From IMG/VR virus record IMGVR_UViG_3300045739_000092, positions 1-60,525 of that record: a stretch of 60,525 bases of DNA; one strand, written 5' to 3'. Positions 19,521 through 31,753 of this stretch are shown piece after piece (the stretch's first letter is position 1; each line of letters opens with the position of its first letter). A program made the translations under genes and the position numbers. The notes beneath the pieces are model-generated. The model did no database searches, was not told where the DNA came from, and worked only from the letters and a program-made list of their open reading frames with translations. This DNA comes from a virus. Lineage: Duplodnaviria; Caudoviricetes.

Positions 19521-20273
19521 GTGGCTTGGCAGCTAAGCGGATACGACGCCATCGAGCCGTTCAAGGGACCATGGCGAGTGGGGGAATCCATCAAGGTTCT
19601 CGCCCTAGCCATCGACGCCCTTGCCCCGGATCGGAACAGGAGCTCCGATGGCACCAAGGGGAACGAGGCCCACCAGACGTACCGCTCCGACCACAACCCC
19701 TGGGTGAAGGACGGAACTACCGGGGTAGTAACGGCTATCGACATCACCCACGATCCTGACGGTGGTGCCGACATGGGGGCCATCACCGAGAGGGTCCGCC
19801 TGGCTCGCCACCCTGTGGTGAAATACGTAATCCACGCGTCGAAGATCTTCGCGTCGTACCACAGGGACCACCGACCGGCCTGGGAGTGGGGACCGTATAC
19901 AGGTTCGTCTCCTCACACACATCACGCTCACTTCTCTGTACTCTCAGACAACTTCGATGACACCACACCTTGGCCGCTGACCGAGGAGGAAGGCGACGAC
20001 ATGGCAACATTCGTGGATAGCATCACTGCCATCACGTGGCACCAGATGGGGCGGCTCTTTCCCGAAGACCCCAACTTCGGCTCCTACTACTCACCGGGAG
20101 GTGGGGTCGAGGCCGAAGCTGACCCAACGGCCTCGCGCGTCAACGCCTACAATGTCTGGATGCAGCGGTTGTCTGCGAGAGACAACACCCTTCCTCCTCA
20201 CTCCCATCCCCTCCCCGCTCACAACCATGTCCTCCCTGCCCATTCTCACAATGTCTCAGGAAAGGCAACCTAA
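19521..20273 (+). CDS. Endolysin, M15-like zinc peptidase
   Basis: SDH-x-AxD and HxHxS motifs; adjacent to holin. Confidence 0.75.
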   Translation: MAWQLSGYDAIEPFKGPWRVGESIKVLALAIDALAPDRNRSSDGTKGNEAHQTYRSDHNPWVKDGTTGVVTAIDITHDPDGGADMGAITERVRLARHPVVKYVIHASKIFASYHRDHRPAWEWGPYTGSSPHTHHAHFSVLSDNFDDTTPWPLTEEEGDDMATFVDSITAITWHQMGRLFPEDPNFGSYYSPGGGVEAEADPTASRVNAYNVWMQRLSARDNTLPPHSHPLPAHNHVLPAHSHNVSGKAT

Positions 20274-20579
20274 ATGGCTGATCTAGCGTTCCTGTCGGCG
20301 GTCGTGTATGCGATCGTCTATGCCCTGAAGGAGCAGTTCGGACTCCAAGGGCACTACACCCGCCTGGCGGCTATCGCTTTGGGCCTCCTCATCGCCTTCA
20401 CGGCGGAGGTTCGGATGCTGACCGAGTACTCGGTCCCCTACTGGGTGGACGCATTCTTCACCGGACTAGCGATCGGACTGGGCCTCCCCAGTGTGTTCCA
20501 CAAGGCCACCCAGGCTGTGTCGAGAGTTGGCGAGTTCGCCTCCGGATCCTTCATAGTCGGAGAAACCGAAACGGACTAG
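20274..20579 (+). CDS. Holin
   Basis: 101 aa, 2-3 TM segments, directly after endolysin. Confidence 0.7.
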   Translation: MADLAFLSAVVYAIVYALKEQFGLQGHYTRLAAIALGLLIAFTAEVRMLTEYSVPYWVDAFFTGLAIGLGLPSVFHKATQAVSRVGEFASGSFIVGETETD

Positions 20580-21517
20580 CTGACTACCACACCGTCGACG
20601 TTGGTCTTGATGGTGTGGATGGCACGAAGCATCGTCATATTGATCTGACGAGCGCGTCCGAGCATCCCGATACGGAGGAGCTCTTCAAGAGAGTAGCGGG
20701 GATAGTTGAGGCTGGACACTGAGGAGGGAACCTTGGTGGTTTCGTCCTTCGTGACTACCAACTTGTCGGAGAGTATGGCTGAGTAGAGAATGGCCCATCC
20801 CTGTTTGGAGATGGCTTCTGAGAAGTCCCTCTTCTCTATCTCTATTGACCTGGGGACCAGCTCTGACGGCCAGGAGAGGGGCTCGTAACCATCGAGGATC
20901 TTCTTGGCTAGAGCCATGTCTTCCCCGAGTTCAGAGTAGTCGCCCATACGGAGGTAATAGGCAGGGTGCTTCATGGGGAGAACGAGCCGACCTTCTCGGA
21001 AGACCGGTTTGCCCCTCACTGCCCCGATGTTGACCTCCGATTCGAGGACTCGCCGGGTAGCGACAGCGCCCATAGGGATGACCAACCAGGCACCAGAGAT
21101 GTCTAGTTGCTGCTCGAAGAAGGGACGACAGGCTCGGACCTCCTCGAGATTGGGATCCCGGTTCTTGGGGGGTCGGCAGCAAACCGTGTTCATGACGAAC
21201 ACTTCCTTGCGCTTGATCCCTACCTGCTTCAAGGTGTTGTCCAGTAACTTCCCCGACCTCCCTACGAACGGTATTCCCTTCATGTCCTCGTTGTACCCAG
21301 GTCCCTCCCCGATGATGGCGATGGGCCACGGGCCATGAATAGGACCTGACCATGGCACCGCTTGGGATCGAGACTCACTGAGAGGGCAGAGCTCGCATTC
21401 TTCAATGGCACGGCGGAGCTTGTTTCCTTTGAGCTCCCTCATGTAGTGCTTCCTCTTGTCGGGTGAGGGGGTGAGCTTGGCAGCCTTGAGAAGTTGAGCG
21501 TCACTCAGAAATGCCAT
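20576..21517 (-). CDS. udg: Family 4 uracil-DNA glycosylase with C-terminal extension
   Basis: CELC Fe-S ligands, GEGPG..ED..G.PFVGRSG, N..CCRPP, HPAY motifs. Confidence 0.9.
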   Translation of the reverse strand: MAFLSDAQLLKAAKLTPSPDKRKHYMRELKGNKLRRAIEECELCPLSESRSQAVPWSGPIHGPWPIAIIGEGPGYNEDMKGIPFVGRSGKLLDNTLKQVGIKRKEVFVMNTVCCRPPKNRDPNLEEVRACRPFFEQQLDISGAWLVIPMGAVATRRVLESEVNIGAVRGKPVFREGRLVLPMKHPAYYLRMGDYSELGEDMALAKKILDGYEPLSWPSELVPRSIEIEKRDFSEAISKQGWAILYSAILSDKLVVTKDETTKVPSSVSSLNYPRYSLEELLRIGMLGRARQINMTMLRAIHTIKTNVDGVVVS

Positions 21518-22074
21518 TGCGACCCATCTGGTTGGCAGACCCAATGCCCCCAGTTGGGAGCTGACCCGGCTCGAGGATGGCCCTGCGTCCATATCGACGC
21601 TGCTAGGGCGATGTTCTGCTCTGGATCGAAAGGGTCGAAACCCGATGTGTGCCAGAGGCCAACTATCTGGAACAATCCAGAAGCCCCGCTCGGGTTGTAG
21701 GCGTTGGGATCGCCTCGGCTCTCACACCACAGGACGTTGAGAGCTCCATCTACTGCCCATGCGGGGAAGTACTGCGAGACCAGATCCCGCCAGGCTTCGG
21801 CCCCGCCGGCAGGTGGTGAAGTGTTCCGAATAGGTGTCTGTTTCACGTCACGCGAAACAGCAGGGGGAGACGGAACGAAGTAGGGGCCGTTGAGCTCCTC
21901 GAGAGCCTGCCGCTCCTTCAACCTGTCATAGTGTTCGAGCCGTGCCTCGAGACGCTCGGTTGTCAAGACCCCTTCGTCGGGCTCGGTCTCATAGTAGGAG
22001 AAGGCACTCTCAGCCGGCCGGCACATGACCAACACCAGAACGAGAGCGAAGAACCAGACGAACAAGAGCCTCAT
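21505..22074 (-). CDS. Secreted/membrane-anchored lytic transglycosylase (SLT family)
   Basis: Signal/TM N-terminus; ESRGDPNAYNPSGASGLFQ catalytic motif. Confidence 0.85.
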   Translation of the reverse strand: MRLLFVWFFALVLVLVMCRPAESAFSYYETEPDEGVLTTERLEARLEHYDRLKERQALEELNGPYFVPSPPAVSRDVKQTPIRNTSPPAGGAEAWRDLVSQYFPAWAVDGALNVLWCESRGDPNAYNPSGASGLFQIVGLWHTSGFDPFDPEQNIALAASIWTQGHPRAGSAPNWGHWVCQPDGSQWHF

Positions 22075-22154
22075 CTGGTGAGCAGCCAGACCAGACCAAC
22101 AGCGCAACCGATGAACCACGCGTAGATGAGAATGGTTTGGTGTAGGGGCTCCAC
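22071..22154 (-). CDS. 27 aa membrane micro-protein
   Basis: GGAGG RBS, MEPLHQTILIYAWFIGCAVGLVWLLTR, ATGA overlap with SLT. Confidence 0.5.
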   Translation of the reverse strand: MEPLHQTILIYAWFIGCAVGLVWLLTR

Positions 22155-22197
22155 GGATACCTCCGTGAGTGGAGAGAACCCCAGTTTAGGAGGGGAG

Positions 22198-22380
22198 TCA
22201 TCGGCCAAGAGCGTTTGCTGCTCGCATCCCAAGTTCCCAAGACATTAGAAAGTCAGCCACGACTACAACGACCACCTTCCCGTAGCGTTGGTTGTCGACC
22301 CATGTGAGGGAGTAGTCCTCTCCCTTATAGGTCCCAGACGAGTACCACAGTCGATAGTTATCTGATTCTGCCTTTGGCAT
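22198..22380 (-). CDS. Hypothetical protein
   Basis: Overlaps upstream stop; fills operon. Confidence 0.45.
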   Translation of the reverse strand: MPKAESDNYRLWYSSGTYKGEDYSLTWVDNQRYGKVVVVVVADFLMSWELGMRAANALGR

Positions 22381-22837
22381 GAAGTTCTCTGACATAGGAG
22401 AAGTAGGTTCTTCCTGGCACAAGATCGAACTGAGGAAGGATCTCAGCAGTAGAGCTCACTCCGGTCTTGGTCTCGAAATCGGTTGGGGTATCGCAGTCCA
22501 GTACGTTCCAGATCCCTTCTACCCCATCATCCAAACAGGCGCCACCGCCTAGGTCTACAGCCCCTTCCTCCAACACTGGAACCTGGCAGTTGGTACACCA
22601 CTGAGGAGCCACGGGTGTCTGGTCGGCAGCAGGAGCTTCGCCCCACCCTGGAGGCAGGCTCAACAGGGTGTGGTGCTCGCTGCCCTCAACATTCCCGGTC
22701 ATGAGCGGGATCGGGCCGAACGCCGCCAGAAGGCACACAAGGGCTAGCCAGAGTCGATCCCGGTACACAACGAACGTCGCCGCCAGCGCACACCACACCA
22801 GGGTCCACAGCAGTCCGACGACGATGAGGATGGTCAT
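22358..22837 (-). CDS. Two-TM membrane protein with Cys-containing C-terminal domain
   Basis: AAGGAG RBS; two hydrophobic helices. Confidence 0.6.
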   Translation of the reverse strand: MTILIVVGLLWTLVWCALAATFVVYRDRLWLALVCLLAAFGPIPLMTGNVEGSEHHTLLSLPPGWGEAPAADQTPVAPQWCTNCQVPVLEEGAVDLGGGACLDDGVEGIWNVLDCDTPTDFETKTGVSSTAEILPQFDLVPGRTYFSYVRELHAKGRIR

Positions 22838-22968
22838 TGAGAACACTCCTTCGTGTGTCCTGTTACCCCCCCACATTCGTCGCACTCTCCCCTCGTGCCT
22901 ACATGGACAAGTGCCCAGGCGAAGATGAGCCCACCTAGCCACGCTCCGATGATGGTGGGTATCGTCAT
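22834..22968 (-). CDS. 44 aa membrane micro-protein with CxxC..H..C
   Basis: Starts in last junction repeat; MTIPTIIGAWLGGLIFAWALVHVGTRGECDECGGVTGHTKECSQ. Confidence 0.55.
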   Translation of the reverse strand: MTIPTIIGAWLGGLIFAWALVHVGTRGECDECGGVTGHTKECSQ

Positions 22969-23171
22969 TTCTCGCTCCCTTCGATGATGCCCAGTCGCTC
23001 GCGCAGGTCATGGGGAAGACCCTGGTCGTCCTCGGCCCACGCCAAGACCTCCACCCAGTCAGCCCACGGCAGCACAGCGTAGATGCCAGAACCGCCCTCT
23101 ATCTCTAGCACGTAATGCTCCTGCCCTTCGCTGATGCCGTCCAGTATCGCCTCGACCTTCTTGACGCTCAT
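22965..23171 (-). CDS. Array micro-protein ending IIEGSEK
   Basis: Start and stop both within junction repeats. Confidence 0.75.
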   Translation of the reverse strand: MSVKKVEAILDGISEGQEHYVLEIEGGSGIYAVLPWADWVEVLAWAEDDQGLPHDLRERLGIIEGSEK

Positions 23172-23395
23172 TCCTCGCTCCCTTCGATGATGCGGTAGTT
23201 CGACCGACGCAGCGACCGCAGCCGCCGTTGAGCCTTCCACTCAGCCCGGCGACGACTTCGGTACAGAATGGGAGACCCGGTGTGGCTCCATGTCTTCCAC
23301 GAATCGCCCCCAGCGGACCAGCGGACCAGCGGGGCGTCCGCTACAGGTTGCCACCTCACGTGGCCCTCGTCGTTCACCCACTTCCTGACACTCAC
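23168..23395 (-). CDS. Array micro-protein ending IIEGSEE
   Basis: Start and stop both within junction repeats. Confidence 0.75.
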   Translation of the reverse strand: MSVRKWVNDEGHVRWQPVADAPLVRWSAGGDSWKTWSHTGSPILYRSRRRAEWKAQRRLRSLRRSNYRIIEGSEE

Positions 23396-23652
23396 TCCTC
23401 GCTCCCTTCGATGATGGCGATGACCTCCTCCACTTGACTGTTGCTCAGCCCACCCGGAACATTCCCTGCTCTGAGTGTCTCCACCGCCTTCTTGATGCGG
23501 TTGCGCTCCGCCTCTCGTACATCGCCCACCAAGTTCTGATTGTGTCCCTCCGGCACGATGTAGTAGGTGCCGGGGGGTACGTCTACCTCGATGCGATATC
23601 CGGTTTCTGATAGGCCAAACAGTGTCGCCTTGACCTTCCTCACCTCACTCAT
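23392..23652 (-). CDS. Array micro-protein with ERNRIKKAVE module, ending IIEGSEE
   Basis: Start and stop both within junction repeats. Confidence 0.75.
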   Translation of the reverse strand: MSEVRKVKATLFGLSETGYRIEVDVPPGTYYIVPEGHNQNLVGDVREAERNRIKKAVETLRAGNVPGGLSNSQVEEVIAIIEGSEE

Positions 23653-23887
23653 CCCTCGCTCCCTTCGATGATGGCGAAGTCCTCGTTCCCTTCGGGGGGA
23701 AGTGCCGCCAGCACACATCTTTGGAGGGTCCATCTGTGACGCGACCTGACTTCTCGTAGCGCCATCCGTGTATCCTCGCCCGCCGCCGAGCCTGGGGAAC
23801 GTCGTTGGCCCCCGGCACGCGCCTGCTTTGGCCGCACACATCGCAGATGAGGGTGATGCGAACGTACGTCGTCTTCTGGTAGCTCAC
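23645..23887 (-). CDS. Array micro-protein, CxxC...C..H zinc-binding type; repeat read out of frame (SSKGARDE)
   Basis: GTG start in repeat; CDVC and DVCWRH motifs. Confidence 0.7.
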   Translation of the reverse strand: MSYQKTTYVRITLICDVCGQSRRVPGANDVPQARRRARIHGWRYEKSGRVTDGPSKDVCWRHFPPKGTRTSPSSKGARDE

Positions 23888-24090
23888 TCCTCGCTCCCTT
23901 CAATGAGTACAGCGAGGGCCGCATACGAGGTATCAGACCCCAGGTGGACAAGTGGCCGGGGGTCAGGCTGACTACCTGAAACGCCACGGTCGGGCTTGCC
24001 CGCACCGCCGCCGTCCCCCCCGCCCGCCATTGGGCGGGGCAGATAGTCCAAGGCTTGTCCCATTCGCTCTACGGCCCTCGCTCTACTCAC
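23884..24090 (-). CDS. Array micro-protein ending LIEGSEE
   Basis: GTGA overlap start, stop in repeat. Confidence 0.65.
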   Translation of the reverse strand: MSRARAVERMGQALDYLPRPMAGGGDGGGAGKPDRGVSGSQPDPRPLVHLGSDTSYAALAVLIEGSEE

Positions 24091-24275
24091 TTCTCTTCTC
24101 GCAACCAGCTTCGTACCACGTTGAACGGTTCCCCGACGATCTTGGCGATGTCTGCGATCTTCATACCGTGTTCATAACGTAGATGCTTCGCCAGGGGGGG
24201 CTTCCAGTAGCCGCCATCATGGGGGTTGCCACTCATGTTGGCCCACGGTGTTCCTGTGTATCCGTCAGGACTCAT
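24087..24275 (-). CDS. Small HTH protein within array
   Basis: GMKIADIAKIVGEPFNVVRSWL helix-turn-helix; start in repeat. Confidence 0.7.
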   Translation of the reverse strand: MSPDGYTGTPWANMSGNPHDGGYWKPPLAKHLRYEHGMKIADIAKIVGEPFNVVRSWLREEK

Positions 24276-24537
24276 CCTCGCTCCCTTCGCTCGGCCATCC
24301 ATTGATGATGGCGAGGGCGTCACCAAGGGCGCAGTCACGGCAATCACACCCTGCTGCTCCCACGGGGGACTGCCGATACTCCTCCACCGCCTTCTTGATC
24401 CGCTGGCGCTCGTCGGCGCGGCCCTTGTCGTAGGCCGCTTGGTACGGGTTCACTCCTCGCCGGGGCCTCCGGGACTTTCCTTCTGCTAGTCCGTCATCGA
24501 ATCCCCGCTGGTAGTCGGCGTTCGCTGCTGTCCTCAT
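24265..24537 (-). CDS. Array micro-protein with ERQRIKKAVE module and CxCxxC, ending AIINGWPSEGSEDES
   Basis: Start in repeat; interrupted repeat at end. Confidence 0.7.
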   Translation of the reverse strand: MRTAANADYQRGFDDGLAEGKSRRPRRGVNPYQAAYDKGRADERQRIKKAVEEYRQSPVGAAGCDCRDCALGDALAIINGWPSEGSEDES

Positions 24538-24773
24538 TCCTCGCTCCCTTCGATGGCGGCTGGCATCGTTCCCCGAACCAAGGCAGCGAACATAGGCATT
24601 CGACGCATCGCCTCCGATATCGGGACATACTCCCACTCCGTTCCGAACGGCCCTGCGCCCGTGGGTAGAACCTCGACTAGGGAGTGGCATGACAGCGACT
24701 CGCCGCAACTCTCGCAGTGGTCGAGAGATTGTCCCATCCACGAGAAGCCATGAACACTTCGATTCCTACTCAC
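24534..24773 (-). CDS. Array micro-protein with CxxC..H, ending AIEGSEE
   Basis: Start and stop within repeats. Confidence 0.7.
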   Translation of the reverse strand: MSRNRSVHGFSWMGQSLDHCESCGESLSCHSLVEVLPTGAGPFGTEWEYVPISEAMRRMPMFAALVRGTMPAAIEGSEE

Positions 24774-24973
24774 TCCTCGCTCCCTTCGATGGCGACCAGA
24801 GCCACCGGCCCAGCGTCGTGTTCCTCACCGAAAGGGCAGAAGAGGGCTTGCCGCTTGTGGCGGTAGCACCACCACGTCGTCGGGGCGGCGCTGCGAATGC
24901 GCTCCCGCTCGTCCCGCCGGGCCTCGGCCACCTTGCGGGCGACGTACTCCCAGTTGTACCACCTCCGAATCAC
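24770..24973 (-). CDS. Array micro-protein with EYVARK..ERERIR module, ending AIEGSEE
   Basis: Start and stop within repeats. Confidence 0.75.
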   Translation of the reverse strand: MIRRWYNWEYVARKVAEARRDERERIRSAAPTTWWCYRHKRQALFCPFGEEHDAGPVALVAIEGSEE

Positions 24974-25188
24974 TCCTCGCTCCCTTCGATGATGGCGATG
25001 ACTTGACCGTAGGCCACCATCGCACCGAACGCCTGCGCCTTATGGGGCTTGTCGATGGCAGCGTGGCGATGTTCCCACACCGCATCGGCCTCGGCCTGCT
25101 CCACCGCCTTCCTGATCCGCTGGCGTTCGGCCTTCCTGGCCTCGGCCATCTTGCGAGCGACGTACTCCTCGTCGTGCCTACCCATCAC
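24970..25188 (-). CDS. First array micro-protein with EYVARK..ERQRIRKAVE module, ending IIEGSEE
   Basis: Stop in repeat; shares DNA similarity with next gene. Confidence 0.75.
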   Translation of the reverse strand: MMGRHDEEYVARKMAEARKAERQRIRKAVEQAEADAVWEHRHAAIDKPHKAQAFGAMVAYGQVIAIIEGSEE

Positions 25189-25693
25189 ATGGCCTCAGAG
25201 CATCAGCCGACTGGTTGAGCATGAAGTTCCCCTCCGTCAAGAGGAGGACAGCTTCATCCAAGAGGTCCGCGTCCACCGCCAACATTCCTTCACCTGCCGT
25301 TCGGTACCCATCAGCGAACAGGACATACGCATGATGGAATAGCTCCATAGCCTCTCTCCACTCTGATGGCGGAGTCCCGAGAGCACGAACATCATCGTTG
25401 ATGGATCGGAACTCATCAGCTAGCTCCAACAGTTCAAGACCCCCATCAGTCCAGTCCATCCTGCCGTCCATGACAGCCGTGGTGACATAAACCCCAAAGT
25501 CGATCATGCCATCTACCGGGTCGGTGATGAGCACGACCCGACTGGCGTAGTCCTCACAGTCTGTGGACTTGGAGATCCCTACAACATTGGGGCTGTAGTC
25601 CTTTACGGTCGCATCCGTAGCACATGCGCCCAGCATCAGAGCCAAGAGCAACATCATTGCTGTTCGTTTCACCCGTTTCGCCCTTTCACCCAT
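25178..25693 (-). CDS. Putative lipoprotein
   Basis: Basic N-terminus, hydrophobic stretch, lipobox LGAC. Confidence 0.7.
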   Translation of the reverse strand: MGERAKRVKRTAMMLLLALMLGACATDATVKDYSPNVVGISKSTDCEDYASRVVLITDPVDGMIDFGVYVTTAVMDGRMDWTDGGLELLELADEFRSINDDVRALGTPPSEWREAMELFHHAYVLFADGYRTAGEGMLAVDADLLDEAVLLLTEGNFMLNQSADALRPCDG

Positions 25694-25787
25694 CGTTCAT
25701 ATCCCTTCCTGCCCAGGCCCACATGCGGACCAGCCAGTAGAGGCTGGCGATGGTGCCCCCAGCGATGAACGCCAGAAGCTCACTCAC
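25686..25787 (-). CDS. 33 aa membrane micro-protein
   Basis: MSELLAFIAGGTIASLYWLVRMWAWAGRDMNDG; overlaps neighbours. Confidence 0.45.
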   Translation of the reverse strand: MSELLAFIAGGTIASLYWLVRMWAWAGRDMNDG

Positions 25788-26022
25788 TCTCCGGCTCCTC
25801 CTCGCCGGTCAGCATCCTCTTGTAGCCTTCCACAACCTGACCAATGGCCGAGGCGACCGCCTTACGGTCCATCCACATCACCCAGGTCATCAGCAGGATG
25901 GTCGCCAGGACCGCCGCGCCCACGATGATCATGCTTTCCATGAAGCTGAGCCGCACGGCATCGAGCGCTGCCTCTAGATCGGTGTCGGTCAGCCTCACCA
26001 CGGTCGGTGTCGTCTGGTACAT
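25780..26022 (-). CDS. Single-TM protein
   Basis: AAGGAG RBS; central hydrophobic helix. Confidence 0.6.
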   Translation of the reverse strand: MYQTTPTVVRLTDTDLEAALDAVRLSFMESMIIVGAAVLATILLMTWVMWMDRKAVASAIGQVVEGYKRMLTGEEEPESE

Positions 26023-26085
26023 GTGTGCTCCTTTCGCAATAACACAGAGTGATGAGTCCGCACTTGACGCACCACCCTCCTCCAG

Positions 26086-26745
26086 TCACTTCCTCTTCAG
26101 AGCTTGTATCAGCTTCTGAGCTCTACCCTTCCCGACTCCCTTCACTCCCTGAAGATCAGTCTCCCCTACCGACCACTCCAGGGGTGCCCCCCCGAAGTGG
26201 TCGTAGATGGCGCCAGCAACTTCCGGCCCGATCCCCTCGAACGATTGCAGTAGGTGGATCCCCCAATCCCTGTTGGTGACCTTTCCCCATGGACTAGTAG
26301 GTCCTGGGCGTCGGAGCAGCGATGTGTGTTTCGTCTTCTTCGACCACCGCTGGATAGACAAGATGGCGGCTACGGTCTCGTCTAGGTTCCTCACCCTCAT
26401 GGTGGGTACGTTGAACTCGAGGGCCATCGTCATCAGAAGGGGGTAGAACTGGTCACGATGGAACTGCCGGCGATCATCCATCAGATGCCCATCCACCGTC
26501 CATTGACCGAACCCCTCGATTATCAGAACCACATGATCGAGAGCCGCCATCTGGTGGAGCTCCTTCGAGAGCCTGTTGTCATAGACCGACGAGAGGAAAT
26601 CAGCGGGGAACTGCTTGCGCTGGATTCCGAACTTCCGGCGCTTAGCTGCCCAGAAGATGTCAACCCCATAACGCTCAGGCGTAGAAGACGTCTTGCCGAG
26701 AGCCTTGATTTCATCCGGCTCAGTCGGTGATATCAAGAGACTCAT
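26086..26745 (-). CDS. ERCC4/XPF-type nuclease with HhH motifs
   Basis: VD...IQRK...DFLSS..D.RL, LIIEG, GIGP and GVGKG HhH. Confidence 0.85.
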   Translation of the reverse strand: MSLLISPTEPDEIKALGKTSSTPERYGVDIFWAAKRRKFGIQRKQFPADFLSSVYDNRLSKELHQMAALDHVVLIIEGFGQWTVDGHLMDDRRQFHRDQFYPLLMTMALEFNVPTMRVRNLDETVAAILSIQRWSKKTKHTSLLRRPGPTSPWGKVTNRDWGIHLLQSFEGIGPEVAGAIYDHFGGAPLEWSVGETDLQGVKGVGKGRAQKLIQALKRK

Positions 26746-26954
26746 CCTTCTAGTGGAGGAGCAGCAGAGAACCAGGCCTTGGCGTCGTGATCCCTATCAC
26801 GCTGAGGGTCGAGATGAATCCACCCCACTCTGAAGTCTGCCATCGAGAACCCGTCGTAGCGTCGGCTCCTTTTCGGGAGTTCCTCAAGAGGGATCCACTT
26901 GATGAGCTGATTACAGACCATGCAGGGCTTCGTCGTGGTTTCGGGAGTCGTCAC
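26742..26954 (-). CDS. Hypothetical CxxC protein
   Basis: Coupled overlaps both sides. Confidence 0.55.
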   Translation of the reverse strand: MTTPETTTKPCMVCNQLIKWIPLEELPKRSRRYDGFSMADFRVGWIHLDPQRDRDHDAKAWFSAAPPLEG

Positions 26955-27775
26955 TCTTCCTCCTCTTCATCTCCCGCCCGCCCTACTTTCCATCCAGCTA
27001 TCTTCAGTAGGTACTCCTTGGCAAAGCTCTTGCCAGAGAGATCCCTGTTGGTGACAACTTCCCGTTCTCGATCCTTGACGGTGGTGAAGGCCCACTCATC
27101 CTCCCCCTTAGACCTCATGTGGAGGATGGTGTGGGGGTAATGGGCAGTTCTCTTCTCGCCTTCTGGCTTGAACCCAATGGAGTCGAAGACCTCGATGATC
27201 TCCTTCTTGTCGGCCCAGGCACCGGAGCGGCTGAGAGGTTTCTGGCCTGTGGTGATGAGGACGTGAGCCTTGTTCCGCAAGAGAACTTGCTCGGCGAACC
27301 TCTTGTAGAGGGGCTTGATGACTCCCCAATCGGATGCCCCCTCGAACCCCTCATCGCTCTTCTTTGACTTCGATGCCTTCGCCGCTGCAGCCTTCCTTTC
27401 CAGGAAGTAATCGGCCATGTCCTTGCCGTAGGTCTCTTGGCTGAAGTAGTTCTGGGCTTCTTCCCAAGCATTCGAGAAGAGGTCACAGATGATCCAGTCT
27501 CCCCTAGCCGCCTGCGGCCTGATTTCGGCAATGGCCTCCATGTACTCATCGAAGCTGTCGACCTCCCAAACTTCTAGGTTGTCGAGCTTCCCGAAGCTCT
27601 TCGATTGCAGCATCCGATCGACGGCGTAGTCGGTGTCGATGACGTACATCTTGGACGAGCTTCTCGTCTTCTGTAGCAACTTGGCTACCGACAACCAGGC
27701 TCGGGTCTTGCCGGCTCCTGGGCCACCCATGAGCAAGATCCGTTCACGTGCTTTCCCCGGGGGGTGTATCGGCAT
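26951..27775 (-). CDS. RecA-fold P-loop ATPase (Sak4/AAA_24-like)
   Basis: GGPGAGKT Walker A, VIDTD, WIICD; located between exonuclease and nuclease. Confidence 0.8.
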   Translation of the reverse strand: MPIHPPGKARERILLMGGPGAGKTRAWLSVAKLLQKTRSSSKMYVIDTDYAVDRMLQSKSFGKLDNLEVWEVDSFDEYMEAIAEIRPQAARGDWIICDLFSNAWEEAQNYFSQETYGKDMADYFLERKAAAAKASKSKKSDEGFEGASDWGVIKPLYKRFAEQVLLRNKAHVLITTGQKPLSRSGAWADKKEIIEVFDSIGFKPEGEKRTAHYPHTILHMRSKGEDEWAFTTVKDREREVVTNRDLSGKSFAKEYLLKIAGWKVGRAGDEEEEE

Positions 27776-28740
27776 CAGTCCTTCTCCTTTGCCGTGACTC
27801 GGAGAACATCGAATGGTTCTCCTGTGGTGATGAATCGACCGAAGACTTCATCCCCGAGTTCGGCCCTGGCCCTGGCCTTGTCGAAGCGTTCAGCACCCTT
27901 CTGTTTGTGGACACTGAACTTGTACTCGTCGGTCTCTGACTTGATAGGTTCCCCTTCATGGGCCTCTCCGCCGGCCTTGATGATGCTGGCTATCCGGTTC
28001 CGGAGTTCGTTCTTCTTCTCTTCCATGTCTGCGAGGACCGACTTCACCGTCAGGTACTCAGCAGCCAAGGAATCGAGTTGGATGGCGGTGATCCCAGAGG
28101 GAGGAAGCAAGTCGCTGTCGGGCGCCTCGTCGTGGAGGAACCAGTACTGGCAGGGGAACCGCTCTGGATCGCACTCTGGCATGTCACCCAAGCCGAAAGC
28201 CTTGAAGACCTTCATGGCCTTGGCCTTGATCTCGCGTAGGGGGATGGGGGGTTTCTGGATAACGAACGTATCTAGGAAGCCATCGTCTCTTCGCTTCACG
28301 GCGTAGAGCGCATCTCGGGCGCCGCTCCCATACATGTAGGCAGAGATCTGCCAGGCGTACTCGGGTCTAGCAGCGAACTTCCCATCCATCCATTTGTCGA
28401 ACGCTGCTCGGGACATGGACTTAGCCTCGAAGATCCTGTTCGGGATGCCCTTGACTCGTCCGTCAAGATGGCCCACGATGACTAGCTTCTGTGGAATCAC
28501 CCAAAGCTCGACCTCCTCCTGATCGTCAACGATCTCGATACCGTCAAGGGCCAGCGATTCCTTGATGGCAGCTTCGTGGAGGTCTCCCTCAGCGAATATC
28601 CGCTTCGTGTTCTCGGAATGGGGTTCGGGATCAACCCCGGATAGGGATGCCCACAGGGCTCGAGAGCAGTACCCGAGGGACGATCCACGAATAACCGTGA
28701 CTCCATCGGGACGAACGTATGCCATGCCGGCGTCACTCAT
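27775..28740 (-). CDS. PD-(D/E)xK Cas4/RecB-like exonuclease
   Basis: SSLGYCSR, G.LHE, GHLDG, FEAKS, QISAYM, C-terminal Cys. Confidence 0.85.
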   Translation of the reverse strand: MSDAGMAYVRPDGVTVIRGSSLGYCSRALWASLSGVDPEPHSENTKRIFAEGDLHEAAIKESLALDGIEIVDDQEEVELWVIPQKLVIVGHLDGRVKGIPNRIFEAKSMSRAAFDKWMDGKFAARPEYAWQISAYMYGSGARDALYAVKRRDDGFLDTFVIQKPPIPLREIKAKAMKVFKAFGLGDMPECDPERFPCQYWFLHDEAPDSDLLPPSGITAIQLDSLAAEYLTVKSVLADMEEKKNELRNRIASIIKAGGEAHEGEPIKSETDEYKFSVHKQKGAERFDKARARAELGDEVFGRFITTGEPFDVLRVTAKEKD

Positions 28741-28759
28741 GATGACCTTCCTCCGGGGA

Positions 28760-28792
28760 GGGAGCGGGGTAAGGGGAAAGAACCCCGCTCCC
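28760..28792 (-). terminator. GC-rich hairpin downstream of SSB-like gene
   Basis: GGGAGCGGGGT / ACCCCGCTCCC. Confidence 0.5.
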
Positions 28793-28803
28793 CCTCACCG
28801 GAT

Positions 28804-29514
28804 CTATTCCTCGATCTCAGACCAGATGCCGTCGTCCTCATCGAGAACATCGGCATGGAGCTCTTCGTTCGAGGGATCTTCGATCTCCGGGTACTTCTCG
28901 TAAACGGCAGTCACGAAATCATCGTGATCGTCGCCGGCTTCGCTGACCTTGTTCGCCAGCTTGACGAGCTTGCTGCGGAGACCCTTCCCCTTCGAGGAGC
29001 CGGATCTACCGGCTTCAGCTTTTGGGGACTTCTTCTTCTTCTTCGAGTCGCCGTTCCCCTCCACATACGAGGTCGGGAGGAGGACCTCGAAGTCCCCGAG
29101 TCCCTTGCGCTCGATGAGGACACGCTCCATGTGGAAGGTGAGCCCCTCCCAGATCTCGGCGTTGTCGGGAGTTCCCCGCTCCATCAAGACGTCGTTGGCC
29201 TCTGTGTCCAGAGCAGCCTTGATGAAGGCCATGTAGTTGGTCGAAGAGCGGAACCCGCTCAGACCATCATCGCTCACCGCCGTCTTGCCGCGGTCCTCCG
29301 TATCCCACCCGGAGCCAACCGAGTAGAACTGCCGAACGAAGTTGCCCTCTGCCTCTGAGTCGGGGGAGGTTCCCTCGAGGATCATGAGGAGGACTTCACC
29401 GTTCTGGTAGCCATCGTCGTAGCCGAACCGGGCCTTCTCGATCGTGAAGTCGAAGTCATCGAGCAGGCCGGTCGACACGACCGGATCCCACCCGACTCCT
29501 GTGTTCTTCGCCAA
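28804..29514 (-). CDS. Putative ssDNA-binding protein
   Basis: Beta-rich core, acidic C-terminus, position in recombination module. Confidence 0.5.
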   Translation of the reverse strand: MAKNTGVGWDPVVSTGLLDDFDFTIEKARFGYDDGYQNGEVLLMILEGTSPDSEAEGNFVRQFYSVGSGWDTEDRGKTAVSDDGLSGFRSSTNYMAFIKAALDTEANDVLMERGTPDNAEIWEGLTFHMERVLIERKGLGDFEVLLPTSYVEGNGDSKKKKKSPKAEAGRSGSSKGKGLRSKLVKLANKVSEAGDDHDDFVTAVYEKYPEIEDPSNEELHADVLDEDDGIWSEIEE

Positions 29515-29608
29515 TGTGTTTCCTTTCGTCAGAGACCCTGCGCTGTCCTTCTTCTACCTCTGGGCCACCCAGCAGAGTCTCGAGAGTGGCCGACCCATGA
29601 GGAGAGTG

Positions 29609-31753
29609 TCATGATGCCCCTAGTGCTTTGTCCCCCTTTCGCTTGCCGCGAAGCACTAGTGCCTTCTTCCACCATTCGGGAAGCATGGCCTTGCGCTTTC
29701 GGTAGATCTTCTCCATGAACTGCGAATCCAATATGTAGATCTCGCAGTAGTCGTCGGCGGTACGCATGGCCCGCCCTGACATCTGTACCAAGGTGCGAAT
29801 CGTCTGCATGTCGTACCACGCCTGGCCCTGACTCCGAGGCTTCGAGTAGAGACGAGCAGAGATCTGTTTGTCTCCGAGGTTCGGGAAAGGAATCTTGACG
29901 ATGACGACGACTCGGCAGGCGTCTCCGGCCAGGTCGATACCACGGTCGAAGCTAGGAGCCAACATCACTCCATTGGCTGACTCGAGGAACCTGTTCAGGG
30001 CACCCTCTCTCTCCCGGGCGTTCTTGTAGGTGAAGAGGCGACCCGAGTGGCCGGTCCTAGAGAGATAGTCGTAGGTGTGGGCGGTGAGCTCGTATGAGAC
30101 TGTGTGTATGAGGACACGTTCGTCTGGGTAGTCGTCCAACAGGTCGTTGATGCTGCTCATCATCGGCGGGTAGGACGTGGCCTTGTTCTTGTGGCTCATG
30201 GGGGCGATGTTCTCGATGTAGATAGGCCGGCGACGTGGGTCGAAGTTGGAGTCGATAGAGACTACTGCCCACTCATGATCCTCCAGGCCAAGGTTCTGCG
30301 CTTCGATCTCTGGGCTGATAATGGTGGCCGACATCAAGAGCCATCTCTTCGCCTTCTCCCACAGCAACTTCCGGGCGTAGCCGTCCACTCTGATCGGCTT
30401 GAAGTGGACTCCCCTATCTCCCGTGTAGACCCAACCCTCCTCCAGTTCGATGTAGTCGTACCCATCGTCATCGGTCTTGACTCGGCTGAGATCGGTGAAG
30501 CGTTGGTGGAGATTCGCCCACTTGCTGTGCTCTCGACGTTCGTTGTGGTCTTTGCTGTTGGGACTGAGGAGGTTGCGCTTATGGGCGATGGCCGGGAGGG
30601 CGTCTTGGGAAGCCCATTCCACCCATGAGGAGGGGATCGTCTTGCGCCTCGGTGGGCCGATACCGAGTTGTTTCAGCATCCTGTCGGAAAGGACTACTTC
30701 CACGTAGCGCATGATCTCCTGTTCCAGCATGTCGGCCTCGTCAACGATGACCAGCGGCATCCCGGTGAAGATGGCGTTGTACGCGTTGGATTCGTAGAGG
30801 AGATAGGAAGTGTTCGCTACCGCCAACTGAGCCGTGGCGGCTTCGGTCTTAGCGACTTGGTAGGGGCAGGCAGCGAAGGGATGGCATTGGGAGCAGTGGC
30901 GAACCTCTTTGTCGAAGAGAGCCTCATTGGGGGGGCAGGAAGAGCACGCCGGGTACCTCGACAGAGCAGCGTCGCATGTCTCCGCCGTGATGGTCGGGAA
31001 GTCATCTGGGCGATCAAAGGTGGGGTAGTTCGAGCGTCCCTTGATGACCCTGGCATAGGGGAAGTCCCGTAGGACCTGATCCTGGAGTGTCTTCGTAGTG
31101 CAGGTGTAGACACACCAATCACGCTCTGTCGTCCGATACCGTTCCTGTAGTACCCGCCGAACACTGTCGGCTATCAGGGTCTTGCCCGCACCGGTGTTGG
31201 CATCCAGGAAGACCGCCCGCTTCCCGTTGGAGAAGTGCTGAACGACTTCCTGGATGCCCTCCCATTGATGGGGGAAGAAAGACTTCACCCAGGGCGGGAA
31301 CACCGGCTGCCCCGGATAAAGAAGGACCTCCGGGGCGGGAACGTCGACGTCCAGATCGACAGCGGTATCAGCGGGAGCGGGCAGATCTGCCCCCGGTGCT
31401 GCCTCTCTACTCTCCTCGACGCCGACGTTCCCTTCATCCTCACTGTCAGGGTGGTCGATGAGGGCTATACGCCCTTTCCTGGCGAGGATGACATAGAGAA
31501 TGTGTGAACAGATCTGGCGATACTCCCCGCCGTGGTGGTTCTGGCAGGAACAGCGGTAATGGTTGGAGTCCATCGGCATGGTGACGTAGTACTTGGGGTA
31601 CTTGTCGGAGAGACCTGAGTCTCCCAGCACCACCCAGGAGGATCCCTCTTTGGTCTCGTACCCGGTTCTCTTCTTGGCACGATCGACCAGTGTCTTGCGG
31701 AACTTCGCCTCGATGGGACGATGTTCTACTGCTTCCCACCCAACCTTGCTCAT
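29609..31753 (-). CDS. DinG/XPD-like SF2 helicase with N-terminal SWIM zinc finger
   Basis: CSC-x9-CSH; TGAGKT; KGRSNY; DEAD; GIDL; QMSGRAMR. Confidence 0.9.
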   Translation of the reverse strand: MSKVGWEAVEHRPIEAKFRKTLVDRAKKRTGYETKEGSSWVVLGDSGLSDKYPKYYVTMPMDSNHYRCSCQNHHGGEYRQICSHILYVILARKGRIALIDHPDSEDEGNVGVEESREAAPGADLPAPADTAVDLDVDVPAPEVLLYPGQPVFPPWVKSFFPHQWEGIQEVVQHFSNGKRAVFLDANTGAGKTLIADSVRRVLQERYRTTERDWCVYTCTTKTLQDQVLRDFPYARVIKGRSNYPTFDRPDDFPTITAETCDAALSRYPACSSCPPNEALFDKEVRHCSQCHPFAACPYQVAKTEAATAQLAVANTSYLLYESNAYNAIFTGMPLVIVDEADMLEQEIMRYVEVVLSDRMLKQLGIGPPRRKTIPSSWVEWASQDALPAIAHKRNLLSPNSKDHNERREHSKWANLHQRFTDLSRVKTDDDGYDYIELEEGWVYTGDRGVHFKPIRVDGYARKLLWEKAKRWLLMSATIISPEIEAQNLGLEDHEWAVVSIDSNFDPRRRPIYIENIAPMSHKNKATSYPPMMSSINDLLDDYPDERVLIHTVSYELTAHTYDYLSRTGHSGRLFTYKNAREREGALNRFLESANGVMLAPSFDRGIDLAGDACRVVVIVKIPFPNLGDKQISARLYSKPRSQGQAWYDMQTIRTLVQMSGRAMRTADDYCEIYILDSQFMEKIYRKRKAMLPEWWKKALVLRGKRKGDKALGAS

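What the first reader, a model, noticed from the sequence alone, without database searches (positions are those of the whole stretch)
22965..25188. Micro-gene cassette array joined by a repeat that is C-terminal tag, RBS and stop/start junction at once
Seen: ten consecutive - strand genes of ~60-90 aa, nine ending in the same ~25 bp element (ATCATC-GAAGGGAGCGAG-GA(G/A)TGAG), spaced ~200-260 bp (one 388 bp interval holds two genes). The element encodes (A)IIEGSE(E/K), provides the next gene's Shine-Dalgarno and forms the RTGA overlap. The 12 bp core is invariant even at synonymous positions and survives where it is read out of frame (23645-23887) or interrupted (24265-24537), so selection or homogenisation acts on the nucleic acid. 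Cargo between repeats is largely unrelated (Zn-binding, HTH, basic, acidic). Inference: a plug-and-play system in which recombination between junction repeats adds, deletes or reorders expression-ready micro-genes without an integrase. A Sak4-like ATPase, exonuclease, SSB-like and ERCC4 nuclease lie just upstream on the same strand. Mycobacteriophage start-associated sequences are the nearest known analogue, but they do not impose a shared C-terminal peptide.
Basis: partly seen in the sequence, partly recalled or inferred. Interest (0 to 1): 0.92.

Follow-up and report, generated by a model that had tools for sequence, protein, structure and literature searches.

The report
Repeated gene-junction adaptor in phage
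An uncultivated phage links about ten tiny genes with one near-identical 21-base junction that serves as ribosome-binding site, stop codon and next start codon, most likely a ribosome hand-over signal kept uniform within a duplicated gene family, not a proven gene-shuffling machine.

Summary
The window is a whole 60,525-bp virus record. Nine exact copies of GAAGGGAGCGAG, plus one degenerate copy, lie on the minus strand at 22,965-24,990. Each sits at a gene boundary.

My reading of the block (ATC)ATC-GAAGGGAGCGAG-GAR-TGA:
- It is this phage's usual Shine-Dalgarno type, followed by a fixed spacer and an RTGA stop/start overlap.
- Because the stop codon lies inside the fixed block, the shared peptide IEGSEE follows automatically.
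- The core is invariant at synonymous sites and uses minority codons, while another conserved motif in the same genes varies synonymously.
- The core survives out of frame (g7) and where the tag is interrupted (g4).

- Five of the ten genes are mosaic paralogues.
- The "...AIIE + acidic" ending is native to that family. Relatives elsewhere end AIIEEAEDE, AIIEEAENE and VIEGEET. The endings follow the genome, not the orthologue pairing, which suggests concerted evolution.

Cassette shuffling stays untested. I found no related array DNA and no informative reads.

Closest known: Cluster K start-associated sequences. This scan's earlier notes describe similar junction repeats on other phage DNA. 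I rate it a new variant of a known kind, interest about 0.5.

The parts
24970..24990 (-). Junction element 1 (g1 stop / g2 GTG start): ATCGAAGGGAGCGAGGAGTGA
24770..24790 (-). Junction element 2 (g2 stop / g3 GTG start)
   Evidence: An identical 151-nt contig spanning this junction is held in a second sample, X2.
24534..24554 (-). Junction element 3 (g3 stop / g4 ATG start)
24265..24288 (-). Junction element 4, variant form. The core is intact at 24277-24288. It is preceded by a 15-nt insert after ATCATC and followed by GATGAG, one base short of the canonical form. As a result g4 runs on to a TGA at 24265, and the g5 ATG (24273-24275) overlaps g4 by 11 nt.
23884..23904 (-). Junction element 5 (g6 stop / g7 GTG start); ATT replaces ATC before the core
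23682..23693 (-). Degenerate core GAAGGGAACGAG with no start or stop codon, 27 nt before element 6. It lies directly after a run of six C. It may be a scar of a lost unit or a slipped duplication.
23649..23669 (-). Junction element 6 (g7 end / g8 ATG start). g7 reads it out of frame (...PSSKGARDE*). The -1 frame from the C6 run would read ...EGNEDFAIIEGSEG*.
23392..23412 (-). Junction element 7 (g8 stop / g9 GTG start). It shares a 33-nt exact run with element 1.
23168..23188 (-). Junction element 8 (g9 stop / g10 ATG start)
22965..22985 (-). Junction element 9 (g10 stop / g11 ATG start); the core is followed by AAATGA
24970..25188 (-). g1, 71-72 aa. Family member with the EYVARKxAEAR..ERxRI module and an AIIEGSEE end. 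It is not preceded by the element.
24770..24973 (-). g2, 67 aa. Family member and paralogue of g1 (E 1.6e-10).
24534..24773 (-). g3, 79 aa, Cys/His-rich. It is unrelated to the family apart from its tag.
24265..24537 (-). g4, 90 aa. Family member with the ERQRIKKAVE module and an interrupted tag.
24087..24275 (-). g5, 62 aa. Weak helix-turn-helix-like matches below the family cut-offs. It has no tag and no element at its 3' end.
23884..24090 (-). g6, 68 aa, Gly/Pro-rich. It starts at a different GTGA junction (gagaagagaaGTGA) and ends LIEGSEE.
23645..23887 (-). g7, 80 aa, Cys-rich and zinc-ribbon-like. Residues 1-66 resemble 60-76-aa phage proteins in the Atlas (score 0.93, a lead only). The tag is read out of frame.
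23392..23652 (-). g8, 86 aa. Family member. Its orthologue P0039 (57% identity) lies on a 7491-nt metagenome contig.
23168..23395 (-). g9, 75 aa, basic and Trp-rich. It has no relative among 5.8 billion protein clusters by word search.
22965..23171 (-). g10, 68 aa. Its N-terminal part is a paralogue of the g8 N-terminus (E 3e-4). It ends IIEGSEK.
22834..22968 (-). g11, 44 aa, hydrophobic. It is the last gene served by the element and has no tag itself.

Best explanation
The repeat is a start-associated, translational-coupling junction. It consists of an extended Shine-Dalgarno site of this phage's usual type (GAAGGGAG), a fixed 6-nt spacer, and an RTGA overlap of the upstream stop with the downstream start.

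HOW IT WORKS (inferred). Ribosomes finishing one micro-gene are held by the Shine-Dalgarno pairing and restart on the next gene. The whole promoter-less run g1-g11 would then be translated as a chain from one early/replication-operon transcript.

WHERE THE BLOCK COMES FROM. It is embedded in the 3' end of a small, lineage-restricted helical protein family (EYVARKxAEAR..ERxRI ... (V/L)xAIIE + acidic tail) that has multiplied in tandem and exchanged modules.

WHY THE PEPTIDE IS SHARED. The common IEGSEE peptide is mostly a by-product. Its 'AIIE' part is the family's native ending. Its 'GSEE*' part is what the Shine-Dalgarno site plus spacer encodes, once the stop codon sits at a fixed distance.

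WHY IT STAYS UNIFORM. The block is kept letter-identical inside this genome by concerted evolution (gene conversion or unequal exchange between neighbouring copies), by selection on the RNA signal, or by both.

UNRELATED GENES. g3, g5-g6, g7, g9 and g11 have come to sit between copies and so inherit ready-made expression signals.

SHOWN VERSUS INFERRED. Shown: the anatomy, nucleotide-level invariance, the paralogy, and the genome-specific tag. Inferred: ribosome hand-over, gene conversion, and how the unrelated genes arrived.
For: (1) ANATOMY. Eight of nine junctions are RTGA overlaps, with the core ending 2 nt before the start codon.

(2) ORDINARY SHINE-DALGARNO TYPE. The commonest words in the 22 nt before 70 crudely called gene starts are AGGAA (14), GAAGG (11), AAAGG (11) and GAAAGG (9). 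GAAGGGAG also precedes the ATG of the 1567-aa gene at 53739. RTGA overlaps recur through the minus-strand operon, for example at 28740, 26954, 26745, 42431 and 40098.

(3) ONE OPERON. There are no promoter-like sites in 20000-33000, against 3.7 expected. Of the 7 terminator-like sites (7.7 expected), 6 lie on the + strand and the only minus-strand one (32873-32861) is far outside the array.

(4) NUCLEOTIDE-LEVEL CONSTRAINT. GAA-GGG-AGC-GAG uses codons with genome frequencies 0.31, 0.29, 0.13 and 0.69 in 14 long genes. Yet it is identical in all 8 in-frame copies. The ERxRIxxA motif of g1, g2, g4 and g8 shows synonymous differences in 5 of 5 invariant amino-acid columns.

(5) SIGNAL KEPT WHERE THE PEPTIDE IS NOT. 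This holds for g7 (out of frame) and g4 (15-nt insert and 1-nt deletion).

(6) THE FAMILY ENDING IS NATIVE. P0039 ends AIIEEAEDE, P0043 ends AIIEEAENE and P0045 ends VIEGEET.

(7) GENOME-SPECIFIC TAG. With tags trimmed, g8 pairs with P0039 (E 3e-26). g1 and g2 pair with P0043 (E about 4e-9). P0039 against P0043 is E 0.15. So the paralogue split predates the split of the two phages.

(8) PUBLISHED SUPPORT. Coupling at 4-nt overlaps, and a frequent but variable role of the intragenic Shine-Dalgarno site, have been shown experimentally in other organisms (PMC6728339, abstract and passages).
Against: - No expression or ribosome data exist, and the host is unknown, so pairing of the block with the host 16S rRNA was not computed.
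- Shine-Dalgarno function alone does not need 12-21 invariant bases. Other genes of this phage use varied sites and spacers, so something more must act: conversion, or a specific factor.
- That P0039 and P0043 lie on one contig is inferred only from equal contig length (7491) and source.
- The DNA of that contig was not seen, so its junction sequence is unknown.
- Shared exact runs between copies have a median of 18 nt and a maximum of 33 nt. That is short for classical homologous exchange.
- The AF2 model of g8, which places the tag at the end of a C-terminal helix, is of low confidence (pLDDT 56.6).
Confidence: 0.6

Rival explanations
1. Cassette-exchange system. The junction repeats exist mainly as recombination sites. 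The phage's own exonuclease and Sak4-like annealing proteins, or template switching, recombine copy with copy. This adds, deletes, reorders or circularises expression-ready micro-genes, as PeSL cassettes do in T4-type phages.
For: - Unrelated genes (g3, g7, g9, and the two-gene unit g5-g6) sit between identical blocks.
- The paralogues are mosaics: the g8 N-terminus matches g10, and the g8 middle matches g1, g2 and g4.
- A degenerate core with no start or stop lies 27 nt before element 6.
- The closest syntenic relative, L020 (49% Sak4-like identity; its ERCC4-like gene follows in the same order), has only two small ORFs where the window has the array. None of 14 relative loci has a comparable junction repeat.
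- A Cas4/RecE-like exonuclease and an AAA_24 protein lie 2-5 kb upstream.
- PeSL-mediated shuffling and mini-circles are documented (PMC2839356, abstract only).
Against: - No variant order, deletion or circle junction was seen. The only joint reported (25179 to 25688 in X2) lies outside the repeats, rests on one contig with a 28-nt side and 11 mismatches, and is probably foreign.
- No second genome with the same element exists in the three collections scanned. Viral contigs gave 11 loci with single hits. Metagenome contigs gave 3 loci, one of them (L036, unrelated and low-GC) with two copies. Genome contigs gave 2 loci.
- The homology is short: median 18 nt, maximum 33 nt.
- Half of the genes are explained by ordinary tandem duplication.
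- Element-to-element recombination should leave one clean copy, not the degenerate-plus-intact pair seen at g7/g8.
Confidence: 0.2
2. Binding site for a dedicated factor. The 12-21-nt block is recognised, as RNA or DNA, by a phage- or host-encoded protein or RNA that switches the whole array on or off. Such a factor has been proposed for Cluster K start-associated sequences, and Cluster A stoperators bind the repressor.
For: - The invariance extends to spacer positions (CGAG) that a generic Shine-Dalgarno site does not need, and this phage's other genes use varied sites.
- Pope et al. raise the same argument for SAS positions without rRNA pairing (passages).
- A tag or junction that differs between genomes but is uniform within each genome fits co-evolution with a genome-specific factor.
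- All copies are in one orientation.
Against: - No candidate factor was identified.
- The copies are confined to 2.2 kb instead of being spread over the genome like stoperators (PMC9283540, search listing only) or across the non-structural arm like SAS.
- There is no RNA structure at the junctions: z-scores run from -1.04 to +2.18 in 9 of 9 folds.
- No inverted repeats occur within 60 nt.
- No Rfam family reaches threshold.
Confidence: 0.12
3. Functional peptide tag. The C-terminal (A)IIEGSEE is what is selected, as a docking, oligomerisation or degradation signal shared by the array proteins. The nucleotide identity would then be secondary.
For: - The 'AIIE + acidic' ending is conserved at the protein level in family members from other contigs, whose residues differ at the GS positions (so some codons must differ; their DNA was not seen).
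- Seven of nine copies are read in the same frame.
- The low-confidence model places the tag at the end of a helix.
Against: - The reading frame is forced by the stop codon inside the block, so the in-frame reading gives no independent evidence.
- The peptide is lost in g7 and altered in g4 while the DNA core stays intact.
- The GS residues are not conserved in relatives (EA, or E in P0045), yet their codons are invariant here and are minority codons.
- g5 and g11 are served by the element but carry no tag.
Confidence: 0.06
4. Assembly artefact. The array is a mis-assembly of repeat-containing reads from mixed strains in a metagenome.
For: - The record is a metagenome assembly.
- Logan contigs of the likely source run break up across the array and have uneven depth (11-40 against 17.2 for the flanking 12.5-kb contig).
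Against: - Every ORF tiles exactly from junction to junction with coding-like GC by codon position.
- A second sample holds identical pieces, including one across the g2/g3 junction.
- The database independently holds the same proteins, for example g8, g4, g1 and g2 as P0038 and P0040-P0042, although these may come from the same assembly.
- Unique sequence between copies is 170-360 nt, longer than typical k-mers. The gene order could be wrong in places, but the elements themselves are not artefacts.
Confidence: 0.02

Closest known systems
Start-associated sequences (SAS) of Cluster K mycobacteriophages (Pope et al. 2011, PMC3203893, passages read; survey of 188 genomes in PMC12699233, passages read)
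   Same: - A short asymmetric repeat in about 10-20 copies, all in one orientation, in the non-structural part of the genome.
- It ends a few nt before start codons and contains a Shine-Dalgarno core plus further conserved positions.
- It precedes genes of different families.
- Upstream stop codons can lie inside it.
- Its function is still unknown; translation initiation or a bound factor has been proposed.
   Different: - The sequence is unrelated (the SAS consensus given in the paper is GGGATAGGAGCCC).
- Here the copies are packed into one 2.2-kb tandem run instead of being scattered over the right arm.
- The block always includes the stop codon and lies in coding sequence, so it fixes a peptide.
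- Starts are 5 ATG and 4 GTG, against 80 of 93 ATG for SAS.
- There is no ESAS-like inverted repeat.
- Half of the linked genes are paralogues whose native C-terminus carries the block.
SAS-like 26-bp repeat of Citrobacter myophage Mordin (PMC4611695, passage read)
   Same: [quoted passage not shown] It shows that start-associated repeats occur outside mycobacteriophages.
   Different: The sequence and phage type are different. The passage I read does not describe it as overlapping the upstream coding end or as imposing a peptide.
PeSL (promoter-early stem-loop) cassettes of T4-type phages (Arbiol et al. 2010, PMC2839356, abstract read)
   Same: Repeated regulatory cassettes lie between small non-essential genes in a hyperplastic region. 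Recombination between copies causes insertion, deletion and replacement of genes and produces mini-circles. This is the model for the cassette reading.
   Different: A PeSL is a promoter plus a terminator stem-loop, so it is a transcriptional unit. Here there is no promoter-like site, no stem-loop and no structure. The signal is translational and lies in coding sequence. Recombination has not been shown.
Termination-reinitiation coupling at ATGA/GTGA overlaps with an intragenic Shine-Dalgarno site (Huber et al. 2019, PMC6728339, abstract and passages read)
   Same: A four-base stop/start overlap preceded by a Shine-Dalgarno site inside the upstream gene. Strict coupling was shown in 13 of 14 tested pairs. 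Removing the Shine-Dalgarno site usually lowers reinitiation.
   Different: Ordinary overlaps are individually different. Here one 21-nt version is reused nine times and is invariant at synonymous sites.
Stoperators of Cluster A mycobacteriophages (PMC9283540, search listing only; described in a passage of PMC4319613)
   Same: A 13-bp asymmetric repeat, predominantly intergenic and oriented with transcription.
   Different: Stoperators are spread across the genome and bind the immunity repressor to stop transcription. Here the copies are confined to one array and carry translation signals. No repressor link was tested.

Membership tests
Cluster K start-associated sequences (SAS) | Short asymmetric repeat, 11-19 copies per genome, in one orientation | tested here: met
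   Nine exact 12-mers plus one degenerate copy, all on the minus strand. The criterion comes from passages of PMC3203893. Nine is just under the published range.
Cluster K start-associated sequences (SAS) | Lies within a few nt (typically 3-7) of the start codon of the downstream gene | tested here: met
   The core ends 1-2 nt before the ATG or GTG at 9 of 9 exact copies. This is slightly closer than for SAS.
Cluster K start-associated sequences (SAS) | Matches the consensus GGGATAGGAGCCC with at most 2 deviations | tested here: not met
   The core here is GAAGGGAGCGAG, a different sequence. It is therefore an analogue and not a member.
Cluster K start-associated sequences (SAS) | Contains a Shine-Dalgarno core plus conserved positions that cannot pair with 16S rRNA | tested here: inconclusive
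   GAAGGGAG fits the phage-wide upstream word set. The spacer CGAG is invariant. The host and its 16S rRNA are unknown, so pairing was not computed.
Cluster K start-associated sequences (SAS) | Scattered over the non-structural arm, upstream of genes of different families; about half accompanied by ESAS inverted repeats | tested here: not met
   The element does sit in the non-structural minus-strand operon and before unrelated genes. However, all copies lie within 2.2 kb, and there are no inverted repeats within 60 nt.
PeSL cassettes of T4-type phages | Strong sigma-70-like promoter followed by a terminator stem-loop | tested here: not met
   No promoter-like sites in 20000-33000 and no minus-strand terminator-like site in the array. 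Junction folds are no more stable than shuffles.
PeSL cassettes of T4-type phages | Recombination between copies produces indels, replacements and mini-circles | not testable with these tools
   Only Logan contigs were available and they break at the repeats. No related array DNA was found.
Termination-reinitiation overlap pairs | Co-directed genes whose stop and start overlap by 4 nt (ATGA/GTGA), with a Shine-Dalgarno site in the upstream gene | tested here: met
   Eight of nine junctions are RTGA overlaps with GAAGGGAG 6 nt before the start codon. The ninth (g4/g5) overlaps by 11 nt. Coupling itself was not tested.
Cluster A stoperators | Numerous sites distributed across the whole genome, bound by the immunity repressor | tested here: not met
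   No exact copy lies outside 22971-24987, and there are only three 1-mismatch copies elsewhere. Repressor binding was not tested.
Simple tandem paralogue array | Members align over their full length | tested here: not met
   Only g1, g2, g4, g8 and g10 are linked, and only by partial modules. With tags trimmed, g3, g5, g6, g7 and g9 have no significant match to them.

The most novel reading that the evidence does not exclude
The junction block is a self-homogenising 'expression adaptor'. Short-homology recombination by the phage's own exonuclease and annealing proteins would keep all copies identical. The same process would let foreign ORFs be spliced in between copies. Each captured ORF would at once gain a ribosome hand-over signal and a common C-terminal handle. 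That would make it an integrase-free gene-cassette array for small early genes, and one instance of a wider, undescribed class of junction adaptors in uncultivated phages. This scan's earlier notes report look-alikes on other phage DNA.
Probability: 0.2. Interest if true: 0.8.

Novelty: new variant of a known kind. Interest (0 to 1): 0.5.

Why it matters
Start-associated repeats in phages have been known since 2011, and what they do is still unexplained. This array is an unusually clean case:
- one block, nine copies, all at stop/start overlaps;
- an internal control (the ERxRI motif) showing that the invariance is at the nucleotide level;
- a relative whose family proteins carry a different but internally uniform ending.

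This turns three rival ideas into a directly testable comparison: strong ribosome-binding site, specific factor, or recombination and gene conversion. It also shows how a translation signal can dictate the C-terminus of several unrelated proteins, which matters when small phage proteins are grouped by shared motifs.

If the cassette reading holds, it would be a simple route by which phages assemble and renew sets of small early genes.

Tried and rejected
SEARCHES FOR THE SAME ELEMENT ELSEWHERE
- A 17-mer in viral contigs gave 11 loci with one hit each. None showed a junction-type start: L013 has a TTG 3 nt after the core opening a 172-codon ORF, with no stop/start overlap seen, and L012/L015/L016 and L018 have only an ATG opening short ORFs of 39 and 8 codons.
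- A 21-mer in metagenome contigs gave 3 loci, and in genome contigs 2 loci. Each is a single ordinary gene start.
- The exception is L036, a low-GC phage fragment where the 12-mer occurs twice, each time before an ATG. It is unrelated in sequence otherwise. I take it as showing that the word is a good ribosome-binding site and nothing more.

SEARCHES OF THE PHAGES COLLECTION
- No blastn match for the array.
- No tblastn match for the Sak4-like protein or for ORF 1086-2675.

RELATIVES VIA NEIGHBOURING GENES
- The ERCC4 protein gave no locus.
- A Sak4-like alignment gave 14 loci. None has 11-mers in 4 or more copies at junctions, or 3 or more RTGA junctions sharing an 8-mer. The 10-copy 11-mer of L026 was read only from the word list as a likely tandem repeat; its context was not examined.
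- The family profile found nothing in 5 of their whole records. The positive control on the window's own genome gave 4 matches.

FAMILY SEARCHES
- The profile against 1.84 billion representatives gave only 3 proteins outside the window.
- The word search with g8 gave P0039.
- The word search with g9 gave nothing but g9 itself.
- Viral-contig scans with P0039 and with alignment A4 found no relative.

PFAM AND PHROGS ON THE TEN MICRO-PROTEINS
- Nothing reached a cut-off.

READS
- No RNA holder is listed.
- Laying runs X1 and X2 gave only fragmented Logan contigs, with no joint between repeats. Parts without cover are uninformative.

RNA-LEVEL IDEAS
- No structure at the junctions.
- No inverted repeats.
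- One sub-threshold Rfam hit, the archaeal C/D-box sR28 at 24.9 bits against a gathering score of 39, across the g3/g4 junction. I take it as chance.

STRUCTURE AND ATLAS
- The AF2 model of g8 is of low confidence, so no fold search was made.
- Atlas look-ups gave leads only.

OTHER IDEAS SET ASIDE
- A link between the element and the GAAGGGTG repeat field at 44.3-45.0 kb. The field is on the other strand and shares only GAAGG(G), so I did not pursue it.
- g7 as a programmed -1 frameshift at its C6 run. This cannot be told apart from an indel or an assembly error.

NOT USED
- Complex prediction, because no binding claim is made.
- Supplementary files of papers. Figures S3-S4 and the tables of PMC3203893 may show how often SAS overlap upstream stop codons.

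Full report
WHAT THE WINDOW IS
The window is a complete 60,525-bp IMG/VR virus record with about 59% G+C. Structural genes lie on the + strand. A long minus-strand operon carries the replication and recombination genes:
- a DEAD/Helicase_C_2 helicase at 29609-31753;
- a Cas4/RecE-like exonuclease at 27775-28740;
- an AAA_24 / weakly Sak4-like protein at 26951-27775;
- an ERCC4+HhH nuclease at 26086-26745.

The phage has no match in the INPHARED phage collection, by DNA for the array or by protein for two genes.

- GAAGGGAGCGAG occurs nine times exactly, all on the minus strand between 22971 and 24987.
- A tenth copy with one mismatch lies at 23682-23693. With one mismatch allowed there are 13 hits in the window against 0.81 expected, and 0 of 100 shuffles reach 13.
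- The longer block ATCGAAGGGAGCGAGGAGTGA has eight copies within three mismatches against 0.00 expected.
- In register, conservation is 9/9 across the core, 8-9/9 for ATC before it and GA.TGA after it, and background beyond about 12 nt on either side.
- Ten ORFs of 62-90 aa tile the stretch exactly from junction to junction, with G+C by codon position like that of the phage's long genes.
- Nine carry the block at their end. Seven of these end ...IEGSE(E/K)*.
- In g4 the block is separated from ATCATC by 15 nt and lacks one base after the core, so the protein ends ...SEGSEDES*.
- g7 reads the block out of frame.
- A second sample holds a contig identical to 24717-24867, across the g2/g3 junction.

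WHAT THE BLOCK IS MADE OF
Seen from downstream, it is a start-associated sequence. Its core ends 1-2 nt before the start codons of g2, g3, g4, g5, g7, g8, g9, g10 and g11 (five ATG, four GTG). At eight of the nine junctions the start overlaps the upstream TGA as RTGA.

The first eight bases are a normal ribosome-binding word for this phage:
- The commonest words in the 22 nt before 70 crudely called gene starts are AGGAA, GAAGG, AAAGG and GAAAGG.
- GAAGGGAG itself precedes the ATG of the 1567-aa gene at 53739.
- RTGA overlaps are frequent along the same operon.

By recall, these words are complementary to the pyrimidine-rich 3' end of bacterial 16S rRNA (core CCUCC). The host is unknown, so I did not compute pairing.

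There is no promoter-like site in 20000-33000, and no minus-strand terminator-like site in the array. The junction RNAs are no more structured than shuffles, with z-scores from -1.04 to +2.18 in nine of nine folds. There are no nearby inverted repeats and no Rfam family above threshold. The simplest mechanism is therefore translational coupling by termination-reinitiation along one transcript. That mechanism has been shown experimentally for 4-nt overlaps in other organisms (PMC6728339).

WHY THE PEPTIDE IS SHARED
The stop codon is part of the fixed block, 15 nt after the core begins. Any upstream gene that ends there must read GAA GGG AGC GAG GAR as EGSE(E). The in-frame reading is therefore not independent evidence for a peptide function.

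The hydrophobic part before it (…VIAII / …LVAI) has a different origin. It is the native C-terminus of a protein family. g1, g2, g4 and g8 share an (EYVARKxAEAR)..ERxRI(K/R)xA(V)E module, and g8 shares its N-terminal part with g10.

Outside this genome the family is tiny. A profile search of 1.84 billion representative proteins found only three further proteins, and a word search found one more. These end:
- ...LAIIEEAEDE (P0039);
- ...LAIIEEAENE (P0043);
- ...LAVIEGEET (P0045).

So 'AIIE + acidic tail' is conserved as protein, while the 'GS' of the window is not.

NUCLEOTIDE-LEVEL CONSTRAINT
- The four core codons have frequencies 0.31, 0.29, 0.13 and 0.69 in 14 long genes of the phage. Even so, they are identical in all eight in-frame copies.
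- In the ERxRI module of the same four paralogues, all five invariant amino-acid columns show synonymous differences.
- The core is also intact where the peptide is lost (g7) or changed (g4).

A GENOME-SPECIFIC ENDING
With tags trimmed:
- g8 is the orthologue of P0039 (57% identity over 81 aa, E 3e-26).
- The N-terminus of P0043 is 85-94% identical to g1 and g2 (E about 4e-9).
- P0039 and P0043 barely match each other (E 0.15).

P0039 and P0043 are each recorded on a contig of 7491 nt from the same source. This suggests one contig but does not prove it.

If they do share a contig, the two paralogue types separated before the two phages did. Yet each phage has its own uniform ending: GSEE here, EAE(D/N)E there. 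That is the signature of concerted evolution, or of a junction that must match something specific to the genome. I could not see the DNA of that contig.

WHAT IS NOT SHOWN
The cassette-exchange mechanism is plausible but untested.

In its favour:
- g3, g7, g9 and the two-gene unit g5-g6 are unrelated to the family and lie between identical blocks.
- g9 has no relative at all by word search.
- g7 residues 1-66 resemble complete 60-76-aa phage proteins in the Atlas (score 0.93, a lead only).
- A degenerate core without start or stop sits 27 nt before the g7/g8 copy.
- The closest syntenic relative, L020, has only two small ORFs between its ERCC4-like gene and the converging lysis/structural genes.
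- None of 14 relative loci has a comparable junction repeat.
- A recombination module lies just upstream.

Against it:
- No variant, deletion or circle junction was seen. The reads available were Logan contigs that break at the repeats.
- Exact shared runs are short (median 18 nt, maximum 33 nt).
- Half of the genes are explained by tandem duplication.

COMPARISON WITH KNOWN SYSTEMS
The nearest described thing is the start-associated sequence of Cluster K mycobacteriophages:
- It is a 13-bp asymmetric repeat in 11-19 copies and one orientation.
- It lies in the non-structural half, 3-7 bp before starts.
- It contains AGGAG plus conserved positions without rRNA pairing, and it precedes genes of different families.
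- Its function is unknown (PMC3203893; PMC12699233).

That paper's Figure 14 legend notes that upstream stop codons can lie inside the SAS. A SAS-like 26-bp repeat before eight genes is also reported in Citrobacter phage Mordin (PMC4611695).

The present element is not a member of the SAS family, because its sequence differs. It also differs in being packed into one tandem run, in always containing the stop codon, and in sitting on a paralogue family's C-terminus.

PeSL cassettes (PMC2839356, abstract) are the model for shuffling, but they are promoter-terminator units, and those features were tested here and not met. Stoperators are genome-wide repressor sites, and that distribution is not met either.

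This scan's own earlier notes describe similar junction repeats in other uncultivated phages (e1-3438190, e1-4262239, e1-3817135). They are unchecked leads, but they suggest that the class is recurrent.

VERDICT
- The feature is real and clean.
- Best reading (about 0.6): a start-associated translational-coupling junction carried on the conserved 3' end of a tandemly expanded, mosaic small-protein family, kept uniform within the genome.
- Active cassette exchange: about 0.2.
- A dedicated binding factor: about 0.12.
- A functional peptide tag: about 0.06.
- An assembly artefact: about 0.02.
- Novelty: a new variant of a known kind. Interest: about 0.5.

Noticed in passing
window 44281-44995 (+ strand): An intergenic field between the divergent minus-strand and plus-strand gene blocks is packed with (G)AAGGGTG units. 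It includes six perfect tandem GAAGGGTG at about 44447-44494 and a few inverted copies near 44341 and 44628-44642. It looks like an iteron, origin or protein-binding array. It shares only GAAGG(G) with the junction core and lies on the other strand.
   Followed up: partly
window 23694-23699 (minus strand, within g7): A run of six C lies directly before the degenerate core. Read in frame 0, g7 ends ...HFPPKGTRTSPSSKGARDE*. A -1 shift on this run would give ...HFPPEGNEDFAIIEGSEG*, restoring the family-type tag. It could be a real indel, an assembly error in a homopolymer, or a slippery site.
   Followed up: partly
L036 525-536 and 878-889 (+): An unrelated, low-GC (46%) 1.9-kb metagenomic phage fragment carries the same 12-mer, GAAGGGAGCGAG, twice. 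One copy lies 4 nt and the other 2 nt before an ATG gene start. One copy again encodes ...EGSE in the upstream gene. The word seems to be a generally good ribosome-binding site.
   Followed up: partly
window 22358-22837 (minus strand): The membrane ORF that follows g11 contains the peptide NVEGSEHH internally, yet no copy of the DNA core lies there within one mismatch. It shows that EGSE can be encoded differently in this genome.
   Followed up: no
window 20576-21592 (minus strand): A 338-aa protein with a uracil-DNA glycosylase superfamily domain (PF03167, E 4e-26) sits at the end of the minus-strand operon, next to an SLT-domain lytic transglycosylase (21505-22119).
   Followed up: no
window 25178-25693 (minus strand): The 171-aa ORF just before the array starts with a lipoprotein-like signal (…LLLALMLGACATD…) and has no family match. 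In run X2 one low-quality contig skips 25179 to 25688, almost exactly this gene (side 28 nt, 11 mismatches). The contig is probably foreign DNA.
   Followed up: no
window 23395-23571 and 25688-25757: In the likely source run, short Logan contigs inside and just before the array have depths of 11-40, against 17.2 for the flanking 12.5-kb contig. This hints at more than one strain sharing pieces of this region.
   Followed up: no
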